Shown here piece after piece: positions 4,897-64,000 of a stretch of DNA of 64,000 nt (within the stretch, counting starts at the first letter, position 1; each line of letters starts with the position of its first letter). The position numbers and the translations under genes were made by a program. The notes under the pieces are model-generated. The model was given only the letters and a program-made list of their open reading frames with translations, did no database searches and was not told where the DNA came from. The stretch comes from Alphaproteobacteria bacterium (GTDB lineage: Bacteria; Pseudomonadota; Alphaproteobacteria; JAAXGF01), in NCBI GenBank assembly GCA_963555825.3, contig CAUVXB020000002.1, positions 2,496,001-2,560,000 of the forward strand, in the 5' to 3' direction.

Positions 4897-4939
4897 CGCG
4901 GCGATGGTAGCACAGCCGGCGGTCCGCGCCACGCGCCCC

Positions 4940-5239
4940 ATACCAAGGATCAGTGATAAAGGCCCCTAGAGATCGCGTCCGCTTTTCGCCGGTGAGGCAA
5001 GGGAGCCGCGGGCGATGCAGCGCATCGGCTAGGCAACCTGGCGCCCTCCGGAGATAAGCGGACGCGACCCGAAGGGCGGCTTCCCGAGGCTCTCGCCCGC
5101 TATCAGATTGGCGGACGTCGTTGCACCCGTCTTGCGATGCCCCTCCTATTGCCATACATGGGCATCGCCGCGACGGGCGCGCCTAGCCGAGAACCACGGC
5201 AAGCCGTCTCTAGGGGTCTTTATCACTGGTCCTTGGTAT
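4940..5239. mobile_element. Family-A MITE, 300 bp, ~33-bp TIR, TA-flanked (IS630/Tc1-like)
   Basis: ataccaaggatcagtgataaaggcccctagaga ... tctctaggggtctttatcactggtccttggtat; close copy at 18098-18379. Confidence 0.9.
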
Positions 5240-5757
5240 TAGCCGCCGGAATCGTCGGTTTCACACCAGGATGCGCGGGCGCCGCCATGGTACGGCCGGC
5301 CGAGACCGGCGGCGATCAACAGCGCCCCGAGATCATCGCCCGCGGCGGTCTCGACGTAGGCCACCACGCGGCCCGCGTACTTGCCGTAGTGCACGTCGAT
5401 TAGCTTCACCGTGCCGCCGCCGATCGCCTCGACGACGAAGGCGCGAGCATGCGCCGCCAACTCGCGCTCGCGCCCGCAGCGGCCGTTGAACTCGGGTGTG
5501 TCGACGCCCGACAGCCGGACCCTGGTCTCGACGTCCTGGCCGACCCAGGTGCGCGCGCGCACCGCGATGGTGTCGCCGTCGACGACCTCGATGACGCGCG
5601 CCGGCACCGGGCCGGGCACGACGTCGGCGCGCCAGCCGCGGTCGGCGCCGCCGACGAGCAGCCAGGCGGCGATCAGCGCGCCGGCCCGCGCCGCCGCGCA
5701 TGCCGCCCGCCAACGGCCCGATGATCGCCTCGTAACTTGCGTCCCGGTCTCGATCAT
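5239..5757 (-). CDS. Thermonuclease (SNase-like) family protein
   Basis: VVDGDTI, VRLSGVDTPE, KYAGRVVAYV motifs; start uncertain. Confidence 0.85.
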   Translation of the reverse strand: MIETGTQVTRRSSGRWRAACAAARAGALIAAWLLVGGADRGWRADVVPGPVPARVIEVVDGDTIAVRARTWVGQDVETRVRLSGVDTPEFNGRCGRERELAAHARAFVVEAIGGGTVKLIDVHYGKYAGRVVAYVETAAGDDLGALLIAAGLGRPYHGGARASWCETDDSGG

Positions 5758-9315: not shown

Positions 9316-9519
9316 CCAGCCCGCGCCAGTCTTATTGGGACAAGAGGGGGGCCGCCGACCGTTCGGCCAATCCTTGTGGGATCAAGAATGGCCTTATGGG
9401 ATAAAGAGTGGCCTTGCGGGATTAAGAATGGCCTTGCGGGATTAAGAATGGCCTTATGGGATAAAGAGTGGCATGCGCGGCGATTGAGCGCAGGTCACCA
9501 AAGGTGACCGCACAAAAAC
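9316..9519 (+). repeat. Family-B repeat copy 2, containing a 5 x 20-bp tandem array (9371-9470)
   Basis: Units tccttgtgggatcaagaatg, gccttatgggataaagagtg, gccttgcgggattaagaatg (x2), gccttatgggataaagagtg inside the family-B core. Confidence 0.92.
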
Positions 9520-14824: not shown

Positions 14825-15023
14825 CTAGCGCATAATCCGATCGATTGGAATCGATCGGATTATGCCAGCCCGCGCCGATCTTATCCCAACAAGAGGGCGG
14901 GCCGCCGACCGTTCGGCCACCCTTGATCCCACAAGAACGGCTTGATGCCATAAGATTGGCGTGCGCGGCGATTGAGCGCAGGTCATCTTTGACGCGCGTA
15001 ATGATGACCGGACAATGCTCTAG
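14825..15023 (+). mobile_element. Family-B repeat copy 3, bounded by CTAG-containing imperfect inverted ends (MITE-like)
   Basis: ctagcgcataatccgatc ... gaccggacaatgctctag; hairpin ataatccgatcgatt-gg-aatcgatcggattat; family-B core at 14865. Confidence 0.85.
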
Positions 15024-16179: not shown

Positions 16180-18089
16180 GCCGGCCGCGCCGGGGGTTGG
16201 GCCGGGTCGATCCACATGGAGAACCATTGTTCGAGCATCAAAAGCGCCCAGATGCGCGGGTGGTCGAGGTGGCGTCCGGCGACATGATCGTCGAGCAGAC
16301 GGCGCACCGCCTCGGGACGGAACAGGCCGCGTTCGATGGCGCGCGGCGAGAGCAGCGTGTCGTACGCCATCTCCTTCAGTTCATTGCGCAGCCAACGGTC
16401 GATCGGCACGCCGAAACCCATCTTCGGCCGGTCGACGACCGCGCGCGGCAGGCGCTCGGCCATGATCGATTTCAGCAGTGATTTGGTTCGCATGCCGGTC
16501 ATCTTCTGGCTTGCCGGGATGGTCGCTGCGTATGCCATCAGTTCGTGGTCGAGGAACGGCGAGCGGCCCTCGAGGCCGTGCGCCATGGTCGCGACGTCGA
16601 CCTTGACCAGCAGATCGTCGGGCAGATAGGCGTGGATGTCGGTATAGGCGGCGCGCTCGGCCGTGCAGCGCTGGCCATCCAACCACGGTGCGAGAACCGA
16701 ACCCGATCGGCAATCGAGCTGGTCGCGCATGCCGTCACCGTACAGCGCATCCTTTTGGGCGTCGCTGAAATAGGCCATCCAGTTCGCGTAGCGCTCGGCG
16801 TCGGGCGCCGCCGCGTCGACCAGGAACCGGCGGACATAACGGGCGCCGCGGCGCGCGCTGGTCTCGAAGGGAAGCGCGCGGCCGATCGCCGCCATCGCCC
16901 GGCGCGCCGCCGCGGGCAGCGCGTCGAGCCAGCCGGCGGCGCGACACCCGGCGTAGCGCGGATAGCCGAGGAAGCCCTCGTCGCCGCCGTCGCCGTTGAG
17001 CGCGACGGTGACGTGACGCCGGGTGATCTCGGAGACGTACCAGGTCGGCACGGCCGACGAATCGGCGAACGGCTCGCCGTAGTGCCAGGCGAGCTTGGGG
17101 ACGATTGCGACGGCGTCGGGCTCGACGACGAACTCGTGGTGATCGGTGCCGTAACGCTCGGCGACCATGCGGGCATAGCGCCGCTCGTCATACGCCGCGT
17201 CCTCGAAGCCGATGGTGAAGGTCTTGACCGGGCGGTCCGAGGCGCGCGCCATCGACGCGACGACCGATGCCGAATCGATGCCGCCCGACAGAAAGGCGCC
17301 GAGTGGCACGTCCGAGACCAGCCGCATACGCACCGCCTCGTCGAAGCGCTGCGTGATTGCTTCCTTCAGCTCTTCGACCGGCCGCGGCCGCGCCGTTTCC
17401 GGTTCGGGGAGCGACCAATAGCGCTCGCTGCGCGCCGCGCCGTCGCCTTCGACGACCATGTAATGGGCGGCGTCGAGCCGCGCGACGCCGGCGAAGGCGG
17501 TCATCGGCGCGGGCACATACTGCAACGTCAGGTAATGGTGGATCGCGGTCAGGTCGGGCACGCGCGGCATGCCGGGCCAAGCCAGGATCGCCTTGATCTC
17601 GGAACCGAACAGGAGCTTGCCGTCGTGCCAGGCGTAATAGAGTGGCTTCTGGCCCAACCGGTCGCGGGCGAGCAGCAGTCGACGGTGGCGCGCATCCCAC
17701 AGGACGAAGGCGAACATACCGCGTAGCCGCGCAATCACGCCCTCGCCCCATTGCTTGTATCCGTTGACGATGACCTCGGCGTCGCCGCGGCTCTTGAACC
17801 GGTGGCCCCGTTCCATCAGCTCTTCGCGCAGCTCTCGAAAATTGTAGATTTCGCCGTTATGGACGAGGTGAACGATGCCTTCCGAATCGCTCATCGGCTG
17901 GTCGGCCGCCGCGCTCAGGTCGATGATCGCGAGCCGCGCATGGCCCAGCCCGACATGCGCGTCGCGCCAGACGAAAAGACCGTCGGGGCCGCGATGACTC
18001 AAGGTCGAGATCATGCCGCGGACATCGTCGCCCAACGCCTCGCGCGCCACGATCGGCGAGGCTGACCAGACGCCGGCGATACCGCACAT
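16176..18089 (-). CDS. asnB: Asparagine synthase-like glutamine amidotransferase (glycan amidation, WbpS-like)
   Basis: MCGIAG, HRGPDG, NGEIYN, LSGGIDS. Confidence 0.93.
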   Translation of the reverse strand: MCGIAGVWSASPIVAREALGDDVRGMISTLSHRGPDGLFVWRDAHVGLGHARLAIIDLSAAADQPMSDSEGIVHLVHNGEIYNFRELREELMERGHRFKSRGDAEVIVNGYKQWGEGVIARLRGMFAFVLWDARHRRLLLARDRLGQKPLYYAWHDGKLLFGSEIKAILAWPGMPRVPDLTAIHHYLTLQYVPAPMTAFAGVARLDAAHYMVVEGDGAARSERYWSLPEPETARPRPVEELKEAITQRFDEAVRMRLVSDVPLGAFLSGGIDSASVVASMARASDRPVKTFTIGFEDAAYDERRYARMVAERYGTDHHEFVVEPDAVAIVPKLAWHYGEPFADSSAVPTWYVSEITRRHVTVALNGDGGDEGFLGYPRYAGCRAAGWLDALPAAARRAMAAIGRALPFETSARRGARYVRRFLVDAAAPDAERYANWMAYFSDAQKDALYGDGMRDQLDCRSGSVLAPWLDGQRCTAERAAYTDIHAYLPDDLLVKVDVATMAHGLEGRSPFLDHELMAYAATIPASQKMTGMRTKSLLKSIMAERLPRAVVDRPKMGFGVPIDRWLRNELKEMAYDTLLSPRAIERGLFRPEAVRRLLDDHVAGRHLDHPRIWALLMLEQWFSMWIDPAQPPARPA

Positions 18090-18097
18090 GGCGCGTT

Positions 18098-18379
18098 ATA
18101 CCAAGGATCAGTGATAAAGGCCCATAGAGATCGCGTCCGCTTTTCGCCGGTGAGGCAAGGGAGCCGCAGGCGATGCAGCGCATCGGCTAGGCTTCTTGAC
18201 GCCTGCCGGCGATAAGCGGCCGCGACCCGGAGGGCGGCTTGCCGAGGCTCTCGCCCGCTATCAGACTGGCGGACGTCGTTCCGCCCGTCTCGCGATGCGC
18301 TGCATCGCCGCGACGGGCGCGCCTAGCCGAGAACCACGGCAAGCCGTCTCTATGGGTCTTTATCACTGATCCTTGGTAT
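18098..18379. mobile_element. Family-A MITE copy 2 (282 bp)
   Basis: Same TIRs as 4940-5239; one internal hairpin loop is 18 bp shorter. Confidence 0.9.
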
Positions 18380-18404
18380 TGCCGGTTTCGCGGGGAACGG
18401 GCCG

Positions 18405-27613: not shown

Positions 27614-29305
27614 ATGAACCGCAGCGAGCGGCGACGGCTCGACAAGCAGCGCCGACGGGGCAAGGCCGCCGGCGGCGTGTCGGCACCGGGCGACGACGCC
27701 TTCATCGGTGTCGCGCTGAACGAGGCGCGCGAACACCTCAGGGCGGGCCGCGCACGCGAAGCGCTGACGATTTACCGGCGCGTGATCAAGATCGACGGCC
27801 GCAACGCGCAAGCGCTCAACCTGGCCGGCGTCGCCTATTTCCAGCTCGGCGATCAGCGCCGCGCGCTCAAGCACCTGCGCCAGGCGGTCGCCGGCGGGAC
27901 GGCCGACGTCGACGCGCACAACAACCTGGGCAACGTGCTCAAGGCCGCCGGGCGTCTCGACGAGGCCGAGACGGCCTACCGCCGCGCGCTCGAGATCCGG
28001 CCCGATTACGCCGATGCCCACTACAACCTCGGCATCCTCCTGGAAGCGATGGGCCGGCCGGCCGAGGCCGAGGCGGCGTACCGAAACGCGCTCGACGCGA
28101 CGCCCGGTTTCGTGCTCGCCCGCTTCAACCGCGCCAACGCGCTCAAGGCGCTGGGCCGCCTCGACGACGCGATCGCCGACTACCAAGCGGCGATCGTGGC
28201 CGCACCCGACCTCGCCCAGGCGCATAACAACCTGGGCAGCGCCTTGCACGAACTCGGCCGCTCCGACGAGGCGGTCGCCGCCTACCGCCGCGCCATCGAG
28301 ATCGCACCCGAGTTCGCCGACGCGCACTACAACATGGGCATCGCCCTACAGGAGCAGGCGCAATTCGACGACGCCGTCGCCGCCTATCGCCGCGCCATCG
28401 AGATCAATACGGGCCAGGTCGGCGCGCGCGTCAATCTCGGCGTCGCGCTGCAGCGCCTCGGCCGCCTCGACGAGGCGATCGCCGCCTATCGCGCCGCCTG
28501 CGCCGCCGCGCCCGGCTACGCCGGCGGTCACATCAACCTGGCCGACGCGCTCCTCGAGACCGGCGACGTCGACGCCGCCTTGGCGGTCGCCGACGGCTTC
28601 CTGGCCGACCAGCCGGCCGACAGCGGCATGCTCGCCTTCAAGGCGCTGCTGTTGAACGAGGCCGGCCAGGCCGACGCCGCCGAGGCGCTGATCGGCATCG
28701 AGACGTTCTTCCGCGGCTTGCCCATAGCCGCGCCCGAAGGCTACGCCGACGTCGCGGGGTTCAACGCGGCGCTCGCCGACCATGTCCTGGCGCATCCGAG
28801 CCTGGCCGTCGCGCCGGCGAGCCACGCGACGCGCGCCGGCCGCCACTCGGGCGAGCTGCTGGTCGAGCCGATCGGGCCGATGGCGGCATTCGAGGGCGTC
28901 GTCCGCGCGGCGGTCGACGGTTACATCCGCGCGCTACCGGGACAGTCCGGCCATCCCTTCGCGGCCCGGCCGCCGCGGCGCTACGGGCTCAACGTCTGGG
29001 GCGTCGTGCTCGAGGGCCAGGGCCATCAGGTGCCGCATATCCACCCGGCTGCCTGGCTGAGCGGCGTCTATTACGTCCGGCTGCCCGAAGCGATCGGCGC
29101 GGCCGACGACGGCGCGGCCGGCTGGATCGCCTTCGGCCGGCCGCCGGCGCATTTCCACCTCGCCGCCGCGCCCAAGATCACGCCGGTCAGGCCCGAGGAA
29201 GGACTGATGCTGCTGTTCCCGTCCTATCTCTATCACCACACGATTCCCTTCGAGAGCGTCGGCGCGCGCATCAGCATCGCCTTCGACGTGCTGCCGACGG
29301 CCTGA
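27614..29305 (+). CDS. TPR-repeat protein fused to a putative 2OG-Fe(II) oxygenase (TIGR02466-like)
   Basis: About 8 AHNNLG/AHYNLG TPRs; HIHP..WLSGVYY, LFPSYLYH, RISIAFD. Confidence 0.88.
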   Translation: MNRSERRRLDKQRRRGKAAGGVSAPGDDAFIGVALNEAREHLRAGRAREALTIYRRVIKIDGRNAQALNLAGVAYFQLGDQRRALKHLRQAVAGGTADVDAHNNLGNVLKAAGRLDEAETAYRRALEIRPDYADAHYNLGILLEAMGRPAEAEAAYRNALDATPGFVLARFNRANALKALGRLDDAIADYQAAIVAAPDLAQAHNNLGSALHELGRSDEAVAAYRRAIEIAPEFADAHYNMGIALQEQAQFDDAVAAYRRAIEINTGQVGARVNLGVALQRLGRLDEAIAAYRAACAAAPGYAGGHINLADALLETGDVDAALAVADGFLADQPADSGMLAFKALLLNEAGQADAAEALIGIETFFRGLPIAAPEGYADVAGFNAALADHVLAHPSLAVAPASHATRAGRHSGELLVEPIGPMAAFEGVVRAAVDGYIRALPGQSGHPFAARPPRRYGLNVWGVVLEGQGHQVPHIHPAAWLSGVYYVRLPEAIGAADDGAAGWIAFGRPPAHFHLAAAPKITPVRPEEGLMLLFPSYLYHHTIPFESVGARISIAFDVLPTA

Positions 29306-45885: not shown

Positions 45886-46029
45886 CATAATCCGATCGAA
45901 TAGAATCGGCCGGACTATACCAGCCTGCGACCGCAGGCCGCCGACCGTTCGGCCAGTGTTGATCCCATAAGATTGGCATGCGCGGCGATTGAGCGCAGGT
46001 CACCTTTAGGTGACCGCACAAAGGTCTAA
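45886..46029 (+). repeat. Family-B repeat copy 4 (one sub-hairpin)
   Basis: cataatccgatcg...ccagcctgcgaccgcaggccgccgaccgttcggcc...gcatgcgcggcgattgagcgcaggtcacc. Confidence 0.88.
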
Positions 46030-48927: not shown

Positions 48928-48985
48928 AATGTGGACCCTCTGCGTTTTGTGTCGCGCCGGCGCGGGTTCGGCTTCGCGGCGCGTT

Positions 48986-49022
48986 ATACCAGGGACCAAT
49001 GACAAAGGCCCAGAGAGACGGC
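48986..49022. repeat. Solo degenerate family-A TIR
   Basis: ataccagggaccaatgacaaaggcccagagagacggc versus ataccaaggaccagtgataaagacccctagagacggc. Confidence 0.7.
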
Positions 49023-49113
49023 GTTACACCGCCGCCGGTTTGGCGTTAGAATTTTGCCTCGGGCCCGGCAACGACCGGAACCGCGCCAGTCGCGCGATCA
49101 GAGGAGACAAGCC

Positions 49114-62184: not shown

Positions 62185-62346
62185 CGGGCGAATGCCTGCT
62201 CTATTCAGCAGGACGCTGCTCAAGCATGACCGCTACGCAGCGTCGCTACAATCGAACCGTCAGCGCGCCGCCAGACCCAACCGAACCCTGTTCAATTTTC
62301 CGAAGGCCTTCACGTGCCCCCAATGTCCTGTGTGGATGGCTCCCGC

Positions 62347-62591
62347 GTTGCAAGGACTTTTTTCGGCGTAGCGACCTAGTCAGGTACAGTCTTGTGTCCG
62401 GCCTGTTGATGCGGTTTTGTTGAACCGCTGGCCCTGATGGTATCCGTGGATCGGGTCCCTATCTGCTTAGCGGGCTCGAACACCCAGGACATTCGTCGGG
62501 TTGTCCCGATCCCCGGTCTGACCGGTTCGCCATCACGTCTCGTCGTCCTTGCAATCGTCGAAAGGCGTTGTGCCTTCGAGAGATCAATTGG
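62347..62591 (-). ncRNA. Putative bridge/seek RNA of the IS1111-type element
   Basis: Segments match the target (62488-62493, 62462-62468) and the donor junction (62436-62440, 62390-62397), each pair separated by a hairpin; RNA ends unknown. Confidence 0.75.
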
Positions 62592-63626
62592 TCATGCGGT
62601 CCCCTCAGTTGCGGGTCGGTGAGCGCGGTAGGCCTCGCCACGGGTCATGATGACCCAGGCGATCCGCGCGGCCTTGTTGGCCATGGCCACGGCGACCAGC
62701 TTGTTGGGCTTGCTTACCAGCAAGTTGGTGATCCAGGGGTGAACCTCGGGCTTGCGCCGTGCCGATTGAAGCTGTGATGTCATGCCGATCACCAGCAGAC
62801 GGCGAAGATAGCGGTCCGCCATCTTGGAGATGCGTCCCATGCGATCCTTGCCGGCGCTGGAATCGGCCTTGGGCGTTAGCCCGAGCGAGGCGGCAAACTG
62901 GCGAGCCGATGTGAACCGGTGCGGATCGGTGACCGAGGCCGCCAGCGCCGAGGCGGTGATGTAACCAATCCCCGGAATGGTCGCGAGCCGTTTGGCCAGG
63001 TCGTTGCCGCGGAACCAGGTCTTGATCTCGCCCTCGATCATGGCGACCCGGGCTTGCAACTCGCGGATCTGCTCGGCCAGGGCAATGACGATCTTGCATG
63101 CCAGCGGGGGAATGTCCGGCACCACTCCTTCGACAAGCTGATCGACGAGCCTCAGCGCGTGATGAATGCCTTTGGCCAGCACGATGCCCAACTCGGCCAG
63201 CTGGGACCGGATCATGTTGACCAGCTGGGTGCGCTGGCCGACCAGTAGATCCCGTGTTCGGTGGAGCGCCAGGACCGATTGCTGCTCGGCCGACTTGATC
63301 GCGACGAACCGCATCGTGGGGCGCGTCACCGCCTCGCAGATCGCCTCCGCATCGGCGGCGTCGGTCTTGCCGCGCTTGACGTATGGTTTGACGTAGATCG
63401 GTGGCATCAATTTCACCTCGTGCCCCAATGCCTGGAGCTCGCGGGACCAGAAGTGGCTCGTGCCGCACGCCTCGATACCGATCAGACACGGTTCCAGCTT
63501 GCCGAAGAACGGCATCATCTGGCGCCGGCGCAACGATCGGCGGACGATGACCTTGCCGGTGCTGTCAATGCCGTGGACTTGGAAAACGTTCTTGGCCAGA
63601 TCGAGGCCGACAGTGGTAACTTCCAT
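62592..63626 (-). CDS. IS110 DEDD recombinase, intact
   Basis: GLDLAK, IEAC, KTDAADA; C-terminal LGLTP..DSSAGK serine loop. Confidence 0.95.
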   Translation of the reverse strand: MEVTTVGLDLAKNVFQVHGIDSTGKVIVRRSLRRRQMMPFFGKLEPCLIGIEACGTSHFWSRELQALGHEVKLMPPIYVKPYVKRGKTDAADAEAICEAVTRPTMRFVAIKSAEQQSVLALHRTRDLLVGQRTQLVNMIRSQLAELGIVLAKGIHHALRLVDQLVEGVVPDIPPLACKIVIALAEQIRELQARVAMIEGEIKTWFRGNDLAKRLATIPGIGYITASALAASVTDPHRFTSARQFAASLGLTPKADSSAGKDRMGRISKMADRYLRRLLVIGMTSQLQSARRKPEVHPWITNLLVSKPNKLVAVAMANKAARIAWVIMTRGEAYRAHRPATEGTA

Positions 63627-63721
63627 GGCGGATAGCTCCTCTTGCTCGTGGTTGATAACAACCACCACTTTGGCATCTCGGTGCCGGGAGCGGGAGCCAT
63701 CCACCCCATCTGCTTCGGGTT

Positions 63722-63882
63722 CAGACTGTGTAAAAACGTCATTCAATTCAGTTTTTCGAGTAAATCTGCTTGATCCCTGAAGATTGCAGCCTGCTAAGTA
63801 ATTGGTTTCATAAACACTGAAAATTCAACGAATGGGCTGAGATCACATTTCGAGCGATTCTCCGACGTTTTTACACAGCCTG
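63722..63882. mobile_element. 161-bp non-autonomous IS1182-type MITE
   Basis: TIR CAGACTGTGTAAAAACGT / ACGTTTTTACACAGCCTG; flanks GGTT and GGTC. Confidence 0.85.
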
Positions 63883-63886
63883 GGTC

Positions 63887-64000
63887 AGGAGCAAACATTG
63901 CCGGCGTAGGCGCGCGGCGTCCGCTTTGTCGCGGGAAGCAGACATTAGTGGTCAACATTGGGATTTCCTCGCCGGCGGGGTCCGCTTCCGAGCAGACAGC
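63887..64000. repeat. Continuation of the ~30-bp hairpin repeat cluster
   Basis: ...aggagcaaacatt, ggcgtccgctttgtcgcgggaagcagacatt (63916-63946), ggggtccgcttccgagcagacagc (63977 to window end). Confidence 0.75.

What the first reader, a model, noticed from the sequence alone, without database searches (positions are those of the whole stretch)
62322..63716. Intact IS1111-type bridge recombinase with all four RNA guides readable
Seen on the element strand: left junction aagcaGAtgggg and right junction cacagGAcatt. So the target is AAGCA-GA-CATT and the circle junction is ACACAG-GA-TGG. The downstream non-coding RNA reads AAUGUC (complement of the right target), hairpin, AAGCAGA (left target), then CCAUC (complement of the right donor), hairpin, ACACAAGA (left donor, one mismatch). 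This fits the established bridge/seek-RNA mechanism. The programmed target is the stem of the island's hairpin repeat, and an unoccupied exact site AAGCAGACATT lies at 63936-63946. It is a candidate new programmable recombinase with a GA core.
Basis: partly seen in the sequence, partly recalled or inferred. Interest (0 to 1): 0.8.

Follow-up and report, generated by a model that had tools for sequence, protein, structure and literature searches.

The report
IS1111-type insertion sequence with bridge RNA
This is a complete RNA-guided insertion sequence of a known family (IS110/IS1111) whose own small RNA spells out both its insertion site and its ends, so it is a good but ordinary example, not a new kind of system.

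Summary
A 1383-bp element lies on the minus strand (62326/62328 to 63708/63710). It has a 344-aa IS110-family RNA-guided transposase, 15-bp subterminal inverted repeats and a 3' non-coding region. Five copies at 99-100% identity in this genome fix the ends. Among 52 distinct homologues from other genomes, the left-target, right-target and left-donor guides covary with the flanks or ends (0 of 10,000 shuffles reach the observed match). The consensus fold places the guides in two internal loops.

It is a new member of a known kind: the IS1111 group with a seekRNA/bridge RNA that targets a REP-like hairpin arm.

Three corrections apply.
- The crossover dinucleotide is more likely RG (AG in the target) than GA.
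- All five local copies carry SA where 80 of 80 homologues carry the conserved SG next to the catalytic serine.
- Exact target sites are rare: four in 6 Mb.

No RNA, circle junction or activity was shown. Relatives in the same genome carry tandem re-duplications of their 3' ends at pseudo-targets.

The parts
62326..63710 (-). Whole insertion sequence. It is 1383 bp when one copy of the shared dinucleotide is counted: 62328..63710 with the left GA, or 62326..63708 with the right GA.
   Evidence: Five copies at 99-100% identity have flanks that diverge at these points. Contigs of other runs diverge at 62318-62327 and 63712-63716.
62592..63626 (-). Transposase / bridge recombinase gene, 344 aa, ATG start with GGAG upstream. 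The motif GLTPKADSSAG carries SA where relatives carry SG.
   Evidence: Pfam PF01548 and PF02371. NCBIfam NF033542 at 325 bits. PDB sequence hits to ISCro4 and IS621. SA in 5 of 5 local copies, SG in 80 of 80 homologues.
63690..63704 (-). Left subterminal inverted repeat GTGGATGGCTCCCGC.
   Evidence: Perfect 15-bp inverted repeat with 62332-62346. Conserved in the homologues.
62332..62346 (-). Right subterminal inverted repeat GCGGGAGCCATCCAC.
63704..63715 (-). Left junction: AAGCA (left target, 63715-63711), GA (63710-63709), TGGG (63708-63705), then the first base of the left inverted repeat (63704).
   Evidence: The same junction is present in 51 of 52 distinct homologues.
62322..62332 (-). 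Right junction: CACAG (the last base of the right inverted repeat at 62332, then ACAG at 62331-62328), GA (62327-62326), CATT (right target, 62325-62322). The base at 62328 is G here and A in copies L002, L004 and L005.
62386..62525 (-). Predicted bridge/seek RNA module: a 5' hairpin, a target-binding internal loop and a donor-binding internal loop. The RNA ends are not known.
   Evidence: RNAalifold on 31 sequences gave 40 pairs, 9 with compensatory changes. The single-sequence fold has z = -3.45.
62488..62493 (-). Right target guide AAUGUC, complementary to the top strand GACATT. It lies on the 5' strand of the target loop.
   Evidence: RT/RTG covariation: 266 of 416 matches against 206 in shuffles, reached by 0 of 10,000.
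62462..62468 (-). Left target guide AAGCAGA, same sense as the top strand so it pairs with the bottom strand. It lies on the 3' strand of the target loop.
   Evidence: LT/LTG covariation: 319 of 416 against 263.5, reached by 0 of 10,000.
62436..62440 (-). Right donor guide CCAUC, complementary to GATGG at the left end. It lies on the 5' strand of the donor loop.
   Evidence: GATG is invariant in 52 of 52, so no covariation can be seen.
62390..62397 (-). Left donor guide ACACAAGA, against the right end ACACAGGA. It lies on the 3' strand of the donor loop.
   Evidence: The C/G position covaries in 52 of 52. The mismatched A is present in 51 of 52 guides, against G in 36 and A in 16 right ends.
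62348..62353 (-). TTGCAA, nearly invariant in the homologues. It lies 17 nt before CAGGAT, a hexamer that would form across the circle junction, so it is a putative -35 box of a junction promoter.
   Evidence: Conservation in alignment A1. No promoter-like site was found in the integrated element. The promoter itself is inferred and was not tested.
63718..63887 (.). MITE-like element of about 170 bp that abuts the left target. Its terminal repeats (CTGTGTAAAAACGT / ACGTTTTTACACAG) match the ends of a 1.66-kb IS5/IS1182-type IS.
63919..63946 (+). REP-like hairpin GTCCGCTT-N9-AAGCAGAC followed by ATT. The unoccupied exact site AAGCAGACATT is at 63936-63946.

Best explanation
The element is a complete IS1111-group member of the IS110 family. 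It has a DEDD/serine recombinase gene, and its 3' untranslated region encodes a bridge (seek) RNA with two internal loops.

[quoted passage not shown] The element is expected to excise as a circle that joins ...CCACACA-RG-ATGGGG.... This junction may assemble a promoter, TTGCAA-N17-CAGGAT. The circle is then expected to insert by RNA-guided strand exchange into AAGC-AG-ACATT, one arm of a REP-like hairpin (GTCYGCTT-loop-AAGCRGAC).

The exchanged dinucleotide is most likely RG: AG in the target, and GG or AG at the right junction.

Shown here: the anatomy, the copy boundaries, the guide/flank covariation and the conserved fold. Inferred only: the RNA itself, the circle, the promoter, activity and the exact cleavage register.
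For: **Protein.** Pfam PF01548 and PF02371. NCBIfam NF033542 'IS110 family RNA-guided transposase', 325.3 bits against a cut-off of 140. The C-terminal domain aligns to IS621 and ISCro4 structures, with the serine of GLTP....S in register.

**Ends.** Five copies at 99-100% identity sit in four distinct contexts, all flanked by (A)(A)(G)CA-GA ... GA-CATT.

**Family signs.** There is a 15-bp subterminal inverted repeat and a long NCR downstream of tnp. The guide complementary to the top strand lies 5' of the bottom-strand guide, as reported for IS1111 seekRNAs.

**Covariation.** 80 homologue loci were fetched and 69 had both inverted-repeat motifs at the expected spacing. 58 rows were aligned, including the window. 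55 were kept after dropping L014, L058 and L063, and 52 of these were distinct.
- LT/LTG: 319 of 416 matches against 263.5 in shuffles.
- RT/RTG: 266 of 416 against 206.
- LD/LDG: 276 of 416 against 249.4.
- Each value was reached by 0 of 10,000 shuffles.
- Examples: LTG CAACAGA with flank CAACA-GA (L036-39); RTG rc GACGTACC with flank GACGTACC (L079).

**Fold.** The guides lie on opposite strands of two internal loops closed by helices with compensatory changes.

**RG register.** IS1111 extensions are reported as 7 bp on the left and 3 bp on the right. That equals ACA | RG | ATGGG here. The sister families B1 and B2 in this genome have cores TG and TA at exactly that position. The three right junctions that lack GA still have RG: L020, L048 and L008/9.
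Against: - No RNA ends, no co-purification, no circle junction and no empty site at this exact locus were observed. Only contigs were available. RNA-library contigs that cover the NCR do not prove transcription.
- Rfam has no match.
- All five local copies carry SA instead of SG beside the catalytic serine. The seekRNA paper reports that SG was required for the related Piv invertase.
- RDG shows no covariation (209 of 364, equal to the shuffled mean).
- Within this genome the guides do not track their own flanks at the polymorphic positions. L004 and L005 have RTG AACGUC but the flank GACATT. Action in trans would allow this, but it is not positive evidence.
RTG and RDG would read only the G of an RG core.
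Confidence: 0.88

Rival explanations
1. The element and mechanism are the same, but the exchanged core is GA exactly, with extensions of 4 nt (TGGG and ACAG) on each side. The G/A difference at the base before GA would then be an ordinary donor polymorphism that the LDG tolerates as a mismatch.
For: GA is present at both junctions in 50 of 52 distinct homologues. All four guides contain GA or its complement. The 4/4 geometry is symmetric about the inverted repeats. Natural non-canonical guide pairs are known in IS621 (passages read).
Against: - A 6/4 extension (core counted on the left) is not among the geometries reported for IS1111 elements, which are 7/3 or 6/3.
- In sister family B2, a 4/4 register gives different 'cores' at the two junctions (AA and AG), whereas the 3/5 register gives TA at both, in 4 left and 2 right junctions.
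- In B1, 7 of 7 pseudo-target joins share TG, and the next base varies (G, A, A, G, T, G, C).
- The base before GA toggles between G and A among copies that are 99% identical. The target carries A there. This is easier to explain if that base lies inside the exchanged region.
Confidence: 0.3
2. The local copies are catalytically weakened or dead relics because of the Gly-to-Ala change beside the catalytic serine. Their spread would then be due to segmental duplication or mobilisation by another transposase, so this is not a usable recombinase.
For: SA is found in 5 of 5 local copies and SG in 80 of 80 homologues. SG was reported to be required in Piv. L004 and L005 share flanks, so they are one duplicated segment. 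The genome holds related IS1111-type transposases with almost the same inverted repeat.
Against: The SA allele sits at four different, target-like sites (L001, L002, L003, L004/5), so the change predates at least three insertions. All five reading frames are open. TA is reported at this position in some IS1111 transposases. The sister families' donor guides do not match this element's ends.
Confidence: 0.15
3. The guide-like strings are chance matches, and the protein alone or the hairpin structure of the repeat selects the site.
For: Each string is short (5-8 nt). The 11-mer site alone is not significant in the window.
Against: All four strings occurred together in 1 of 200,000 shuffles. Position-specific covariation holds across 52 homologues. 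The strings lie in conserved internal loops. Several copies sit at sites with no recognisable hairpin.
Confidence: 0.02

Closest known systems
IS1111-family elements with a seekRNA: ISEc11, ISPa11, ISKpn4, ISPst6 (Siddiquee et al. 2024, PMC11187229; sections 6, 9 and 13 and passages read)
   Same: - DEDD transposase of 330-350 aa.
- Subterminal inverted repeats.
- Long NCR downstream of tnp.
- The top-strand-complementary segment lies 5' of the bottom-strand one.
- No true target duplication.
- 7/3 terminal extensions, if the core is RG.
   Different: - Different target (AAGCAGACATT) and a different clade: alphaproteobacterial, at most 66% aa identity to any plasmid-borne relative found.
- SA instead of SG/TG next to the serine.
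- RNA and activity are not shown here.
IS621 bridge RNA system (Durrant et al. 2024, PMC11208160; Hiraizumi et al. 2024, PMC11208158; passages read)
   Same: - Two-loop RNA with LTG/RTG and LDG/RDG.
- LTG and LDG pair with the bottom strand, RTG and RDG with the top strand.
- The core is included in the guides.
- The target is a REP sequence.
   Different: - IS621 belongs to the IS110 group: its RNA is in the left end, upstream of the gene, and the guide order is reversed.
- Its core is CT.
- It has a 2-3-bp rather than a 15-bp subterminal repeat.
- Only the C-terminal domain aligns by sequence (E 1.3e-9).
ISPpu9 and ISPpu10 of Pseudomonas putida (PMC12288879; abstract and outline read)
   Same: IS110-family elements inserted in REP sequences, with a small-RNA module downstream of tnp. 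Modules are found separately in the genome.
   Different: In ISPpu9 the Ssr9 RNA was not required for transposition and moves as its own circle. Here the RNA carries all four guides. The extra 3' modules seen in the sister family B1 are tandem re-duplications, not dispersed copies.
IS4321/IS5075 (Partridge and Hall 2003; seen only as a cited reference)
   Same: IS1111-family elements with subterminal repeats that insert in one orientation into a short conserved sequence belonging to another mobile element's inverted repeat.
   Different: Their target is the 38-bp repeat of Tn21-family transposons. Here the target is a REP-like arm that, in the window copy, happens to abut a MITE end.

Membership tests
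IS110 family (RNA-guided DEDD transposases) | N-terminal DEDD/RuvC-like domain | tested here: met
   PF01548 at aa 6-145, E 1.1e-16. NF033542 spans aa 5-331. GLDLAK, GIEACG and KTDAADA motifs are present. Assigning these to the catalytic D-E-D-D is from recall plus the alignment.
IS110 family (RNA-guided DEDD transposases) | C-terminal Tnp domain (PF02371) with the G--P----S(T)G motif | tested here: inconclusive
   PF02371 at aa 212-286, E 7.4e-23. The serine aligns with that of IS621. The following residue is Ala in all 5 local copies and Gly in 80 of 80 homologues. TA variants are reported.
IS1111 group | Subterminal inverted repeats of about 11-13 bp (7-17 bp) | tested here: met
   Perfect 15-bp repeat at 63690-63704 and 62332-62346.
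IS1111 group | Long non-coding region downstream of tnp | tested here: met
   264 nt from the stop codon (62592) to the right end (62328), against 82 nt upstream of the ATG.
IS1111 group | Asymmetric terminal extensions: 7 bp (or 6) on the left, 3 bp on the right | tested here: inconclusive
   Met if the core is RG (AGATGGG on the left, ACA on the right). The sequence alone equally allows 6/4 with GA. The sister families B1 and B2 fit 7/3.
Bridge / seek RNA | Guides for both target halves and both donor halves, on opposite strands of internal loops | tested here: met
   Consensus structure from 31 sequences. Guide coordinates.
Bridge / seek RNA | Guides covary with target and donor across relatives | tested here: met
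   For LTG, RTG and LDG, 0 of 10,000 shuffles reached the observed match. RDG could not be tested because its partner is invariant.
Bridge / seek RNA | The RNA is made, binds the transposase and is required for transposition | not testable with these tools
   Only assembled contigs of RNA libraries were available. These cannot show transcription or RNA ends.
IS110/IS1111 life cycle | Circular intermediate with a junction promoter | not testable with these tools
   No back-joined contig was reported. TTGCAA-N17-CAGGAT across the inferred junction is read from the sequence. No promoter-like site was found in the linear form.

The most novel reading that the evidence does not exclude
In this clade the exchanged dinucleotide is RG, and most resident copies carry a deliberate core mismatch: GG at the right junction against AG at the left junction and in both LTG and LDG.

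IS621 cleaves the top strand 3' of the core. With that polarity, an excised circle would be a heteroduplex. Its bottom strand, the one the LDG reads, would carry the left junction's AG. That would explain three things: the 'mismatch', the invariant left junction, and the G/A toggling at the right junction. It could also act as a lock that disfavours excision.

In addition, the sister family's tandem 3' re-duplications show that the recombinase uses DNA encoding its own guides as pseudo-targets. This is a possible natural route to arrays of bridge-RNA modules.
Probability: 0.2. Interest if true: 0.6.

Novelty: new member of a known kind. Interest (0 to 1): 0.3.

Why it matters
It is one more natural bridge/seek-RNA recombinase, from an alphaproteobacterial clade, with a clearly readable RNA. 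Its practical value is modest.
- The clade offers about 50 natural guide/target pairs that share one scaffold. This amounts to a free specificity data set for engineering IS1111-type systems.
- The local allele (SA for SG) is a natural test of how strict that motif is.
- The family-wide mismatch at the first core base, and the self-targeted tandem arrays in the sister family, bear on two open questions about this family: how the direction of the reaction (excision versus insertion) is set, and how off-target recombination occurs.

Tried and rejected
- **Rfam**: no family matched at E up to 1, so no curated RNA model covers this RNA.
- **Single-sequence MFE fold**: it pairs the region differently from the consensus. 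I relied on the alignment fold.
- **First repeat search**: it was too strict and found only one relative. It was redone with a shorter motif.
- **Whole-window repeat search**: it gave no family containing the target. The 'hairpin repeat' had to be found genome-wide, and it is small: 22 GTCYGCT-N11-AGCRGAC and 15 AGCRGAC-N22-GTCYGCT on one strand. Only four exact 11-mer sites exist in 6.04 Mb, against 0.6 expected.
- **Public runs**: only Logan contigs were served, no raw reads. No circle junction and no empty site for this locus were seen. Contigs of two RNA libraries cover parts of the element, including the NCR, but this does not show transcription. Parts without cover mean nothing.
- **Promoter/terminator scan**: nothing found in the integrated element.
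- **Tandem 3' arrays in the 80 homologue loci**: none within the 1.2-kb flanks. Only L014 and L068 have a second repeat motif, and it lies far away.
- **Literature search** for IS1111 + tandem + 'right end': six papers held all three terms and four were listed. None of the four describes such arrays by title or abstract.
- **ISfinder** could not be consulted, so I cannot say whether this IS already has a name.
- **Supplementary files of papers are closed.** Supplementary Table 5 of PMC11208160 and the target logos of PMC11187229 may already list this clade and its target.
- **Not run:** structure prediction, complex prediction and the large protein searches. The family assignment was already unambiguous.

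**Rows dropped before the covariation count**:
- 11 of 80 loci lacked both repeat motifs at the expected spacing.
- 12 more had flanks cut by contig ends.
- L014 has its left flank cut.
- L063 has a left end that is not GA-TGGG.
- L058 has a right flank shorter than 10 nt.
- Three exact duplicates were collapsed.
Full report
**What is there.**
On the minus strand of the window lies a 1383-bp element. It runs from 62328 to 63710 if the left copy of the shared dinucleotide is counted, or from 62326 to 63708 if the right copy is counted.

Its single long gene (62592-63626, ATG start preceded by GGAG) encodes 344 aa.
- It matches Pfam DEDD_Tnp_IS110 (aa 6-145, E 1.1e-16) and Transposase_20 (aa 212-286, E 7.4e-23).
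- It matches NCBIfam NF033542 'IS110 family RNA-guided transposase' end to end, at 325 bits against a cut-off of 140.
- By sequence, its C-terminal domain aligns to the solved ISCro4 (9t56) and IS621 (8wt6) recombinases, with the serine of GLTP....S in register.

A perfect 15-bp inverted repeat, GTGGATGGCTCCCGC, sits a few bases inside each end (63690-63704 and 62332-62346). The long non-coding region is downstream of the gene. These are the marks of the IS1111 group as described in PMC11187229 (sections 4 and 6) and PMC11208160 (passages).

**Checking the ends.**
The assembly that holds the window (two contigs, 6.04 Mb) has four more full-length copies at 99% identity. Two of these share flanks and are one duplicated segment. 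There are also truncated copies.

On the element strand the flanks read as follows:

| Copy | Flanks |
|---|---|
| Window | cccgAAGCA-GA-[IS]-GA-CATTggg |
| L002 | catAAGCA-GA-[IS]-GA-CATTcga |
| L003 | actAGCA-GA-[IS]-GA-CATTcaa |
| L004/5 | attACA-GA-[IS]-GA-CATTcgg |

Contigs from other public runs also leave the window sequence at 62318-62327 and 63712-63716, carrying the flanks of those other copies.

**Checking the guides.**
In the 245 nt between the stop codon and the right repeat, the four strings occur in the order given:
- AATGTC at 62488-62493
- AAGCAGA at 62462-62468
- CCATC at 62436-62440
- ACACAAGA at 62390-62397

In 200,000 shuffles of that stretch, all four occurred together once.

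Their senses fit the published rule. LTG and LDG have the sense of the top strand, so they pair with the bottom strand. RTG and RDG are complementary to the top strand (PMC11208160). The top-strand-complementary target segment lies 5' of the other, which is the order reported for IS1111 seekRNAs (PMC11187229 section 9).

One scan of the species-representative genome collection found 526 relatives. The best 80 (61-92% aa identity, almost all Alphaproteobacteria) were fetched with flanks.
- 69 had both repeat motifs at the right spacing.
- 57 of them had enough flank and were aligned with the window.
- I dropped L014 (cut flank), L063 (aberrant left end) and L058 (short flank), then collapsed duplicates. 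52 distinct guide/flank sets remained.

Most share the target (A)AAGCA-GA-CAT. Sub-lineages differ, and their guides differ with them:

| Loci | Guide | Flank |
|---|---|---|
| L036-39 | LTG ..CAACAGA | CAACA-GA |
| L022, L048 | LTG ..AACCAGA | AACCA-GA |
| L047, 54, 66, 70 (L071: ATAGCA-GA) | LTG ..TTAGCAGA | TTAGCA-GA |
| L079 | RTG complement GACGTACC | GACGTACC |
| L055/56 | RTG complement GACATCAA | GACATCAA |
| L074 | RTG complement GACAGGC | GACAGGC |

Matches between guide and own flank, compared with shuffled pairing:

| Pair | Observed | Shuffled mean | Shuffles reaching observed |
|---|---|---|---|
| LT/LTG | 319 of 416 | 263.5 | 0 of 10,000 |
| RT/RTG | 266 of 416 | 206 | 0 of 10,000 |
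| LD/LDG | 276 of 416 | 249.4 | 0 of 10,000 |

In LD/LDG, one C/G position agrees in 52 of 52. RD/RDG shows nothing (209 of 364 against 209) because its partner GATG never varies.

The informative span is about six bases left of the core and five bases right of it.

**Structure.**
RNAalifold on 31 diverse members predicts the following:
- A 5' hairpin.
- A helix (GGAUCGGG/CCCGAUCC in the window) with 6-11 compensatory sequences per pair, closing an internal loop. The 5' strand of the loop is the RTG and the 3' strand is the LTG. The loop is capped by a hairpin with 11 compensatory sequences at one pair.
- A second internal loop with the RDG on the 5' strand and the LDG on the 3' strand, around a GGCC/GGCC helix and a hairpin with 8 compensatory sequences.

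This is the two-loop bridge-RNA plan. Rfam holds no model for it.

**The target.**
Genome-wide, GTCYGCT-N11-AGCRGAC occurs 22 times and AGCRGAC-N22-GTCYGCT 15 times on one strand. This is a small REP-like family of alternating inverted arms.

The free exact site at 63936-63946 is the 3' arm of such a hairpin (GTCCGCTT-tgtcgcggg-AAGCAGAC, 63919-63943). Its match to the guides is as good as that of the occupied site.

The occupied site is the opposite-strand arm of a neighbouring hairpin. The loop of that hairpin is filled by a 170-bp MITE-like element (63718-63887). However, exact sites are scarce: four in the genome against 0.6 expected. Copies L003 and L004/5 also sit at imperfect sites with no visible hairpin.

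**Correction 1: the core.**
Three lines of evidence put the exchanged dinucleotide one base to the left, at RG.
1. IS1111 elements are reported to have terminal extensions of 7 bp on the left and 3 bp on the right (PMC11187229 introduction). Here that reads ...CCAC-ACA | RG | ATGGG-GTGG....
2. Two sister families in this genome (57% aa identity, nearly the same inverted repeat) have unambiguous cores at exactly that position. B2 has TA at four left and two right junctions, whereas a 4/4 register would give AA against AG. B1 has TG, shared by seven of seven distinct pseudo-target joins, and the next base varies.
3. The base before GA at the right end is G in 36 and A in 16 of the 52 homologues. 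It toggles among the 99%-identical local copies: G in the window copy and L003, A in L002 and L004/5. The LDG has A in 51 of 52, and the target also has A there.

The three right junctions that lack GA (L020 GT, L048 GG, L008/9 GC) still have RG.

It is a family-wide feature at the first core base.

IS621 cleaves the top strand 3' of the core (PMC11208158 passages). With that polarity, the right junction inherits the donor's top-strand core and the target's bottom-strand core. This would produce exactly such a G/A polymorphism on the right only. That last step is inference. I give RG about 0.7 and GA about 0.3.

**Correction 2: 'intact'.**
The frame is open, and both domains and the serine are present. 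However, the residue after the serine is Ala in all five local copies and Gly in 80 of 80 homologues. PMC11187229 reports SG, TG or occasionally TA at this position, and states that SG was required in Piv. The SA allele sits at four different target-like sites, so it has probably transposed. Activity is nonetheless unproven.

**Correction 3: novelty.**
The family is already named as RNA-guided by NCBI, and the mechanism is established for IS621 and for four IS1111 members. Bridge RNAs were predicted in 93% of ISfinder IS1111 entries. REP targeting is known for IS621, ISPa11 and ISPpu9. This is a new member, not a new variant. I could not consult ISfinder or the closed supplements to see whether it already has a name.

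**What remains unshown.**
The RNA and its ends, the circle, the junction promoter, and recombination itself are all unshown. The promoter TTGCAA-N17-CAGGAT is read from the sequence, TTGCAA is nearly invariant, and no promoter was found in the linear form. The public runs that hold the element are served only as contigs.

**Side observations.**
- Downstream of four of five B1 copies, the last 25-873 bp of the element are re-duplicated in tandem, up to about ten times. Each unit ends at the right end and restarts at an internal TG. Restart sites include the DNA that encodes the LTG and the LDG.
- Three truncated copies of the reported element carry a 45-nt tandem duplication of the target loop.
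- A 1.66-kb IS5/IS1182-type IS (about 25 copies) and MITEs with the same ends sit in the loops of the same hairpins.

Noticed in passing
L094 (G000:C2:2096400-2099700), element end at about C2:2097960. Also C1:168900-170315, C1:2233300-2234804 and C2:1402300-1404136.: Downstream of four of five copies of a sister IS1111-type family (B1, 57% aa identity), the 3' part of the element is re-duplicated in tandem. Units are 297, 140, 135, 97, 72 and 25 bp, and one is 873 bp. Each unit ends at the right end and restarts at an internal TG. Restart sites include the DNA encoding the LTG (GCTTATGA) and the LDG (ACACATGG). This looks like right-end-by-pseudo-target recombination that produces arrays of bridge-RNA modules. 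The tail of the longest array is noisy and could include assembly error.
   Followed up: partly
window 62852-62857 (codons for Ser-Ala of GLTPKADSSAG), and the same position in L002-L005: The conserved SG next to the catalytic serine is SA in all five local copies. It is SG in all 80 homologues from other genomes.
   Followed up: yes
window 62328 (element strand: the base before GA at the right end): This base is G or A among copies that are 99% identical in this genome. It is G in 36 and A in 16 of 52 homologues, while the LDG has A in 51 of 52. The left junction has A in 51 of 52. No explanation was tested. I propose a heteroduplex core.
   Followed up: partly
window 63718-63887; full-length example L093 (G000:C1:337900-339800): A 170-bp MITE-like element shares its terminal repeats (ACGTT(T/C)TTACACAG...) with a 1.66-kb IS that encodes a DUF772 + DDE_Tnp_1_6 transposase (IS5/IS1182 type). 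51 such ends exist in the genome. Their outward flanks read nnnGCAGAC(A)T(T), so they sit in the loop between two inverted REP arms.
   Followed up: partly
L007 (G000:C1:945995-946521), L008 (C1:1262874-1263402), L009 (C1:1714256-1714799): Three 5'-truncated copies of the reported element all begin near the same internal point (cttcgccgtctgctgg, which resembles a REP arm). All carry a 45-nt tandem duplication of the target-binding loop. The first LTG copy reads AAGCGGA, and the two RTG copies differ at a known polymorphic base. L008 and L009 share flanks.
   Followed up: partly
G000:C2:525380-525420 and C2:1017000-1017050: Copies of sister families B1 and B2 lie tail to tail, right end against right end (…CCACACATAGCCATGTGTGG…). 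Each one's right flank is the other's end, and each RTG matches that flank over 6-7 nt.
   Followed up: no
window 27949-28551: Six tandem 102-nt units at 61-76% identity to the reference copy, within a coding-looking region. The pattern suggests protein repeats such as TPR.
   Followed up: no
window 9372-9492: Five to six tandem 20-nt units (CCTTGTGGGATCAAGAATGG-like). A flanking sequence recurs at 14942-14990 and 45959-46007.
   Followed up: no
window 4924-5240 and 18082-18380 (also 48978-49024): A repeated element of about 300 bp with 33-nt inverted ends (ATACCAAGGATCAGTGATAAAGGCCC...), 89-97% identical between copies. It is MITE-like.
   Followed up: no
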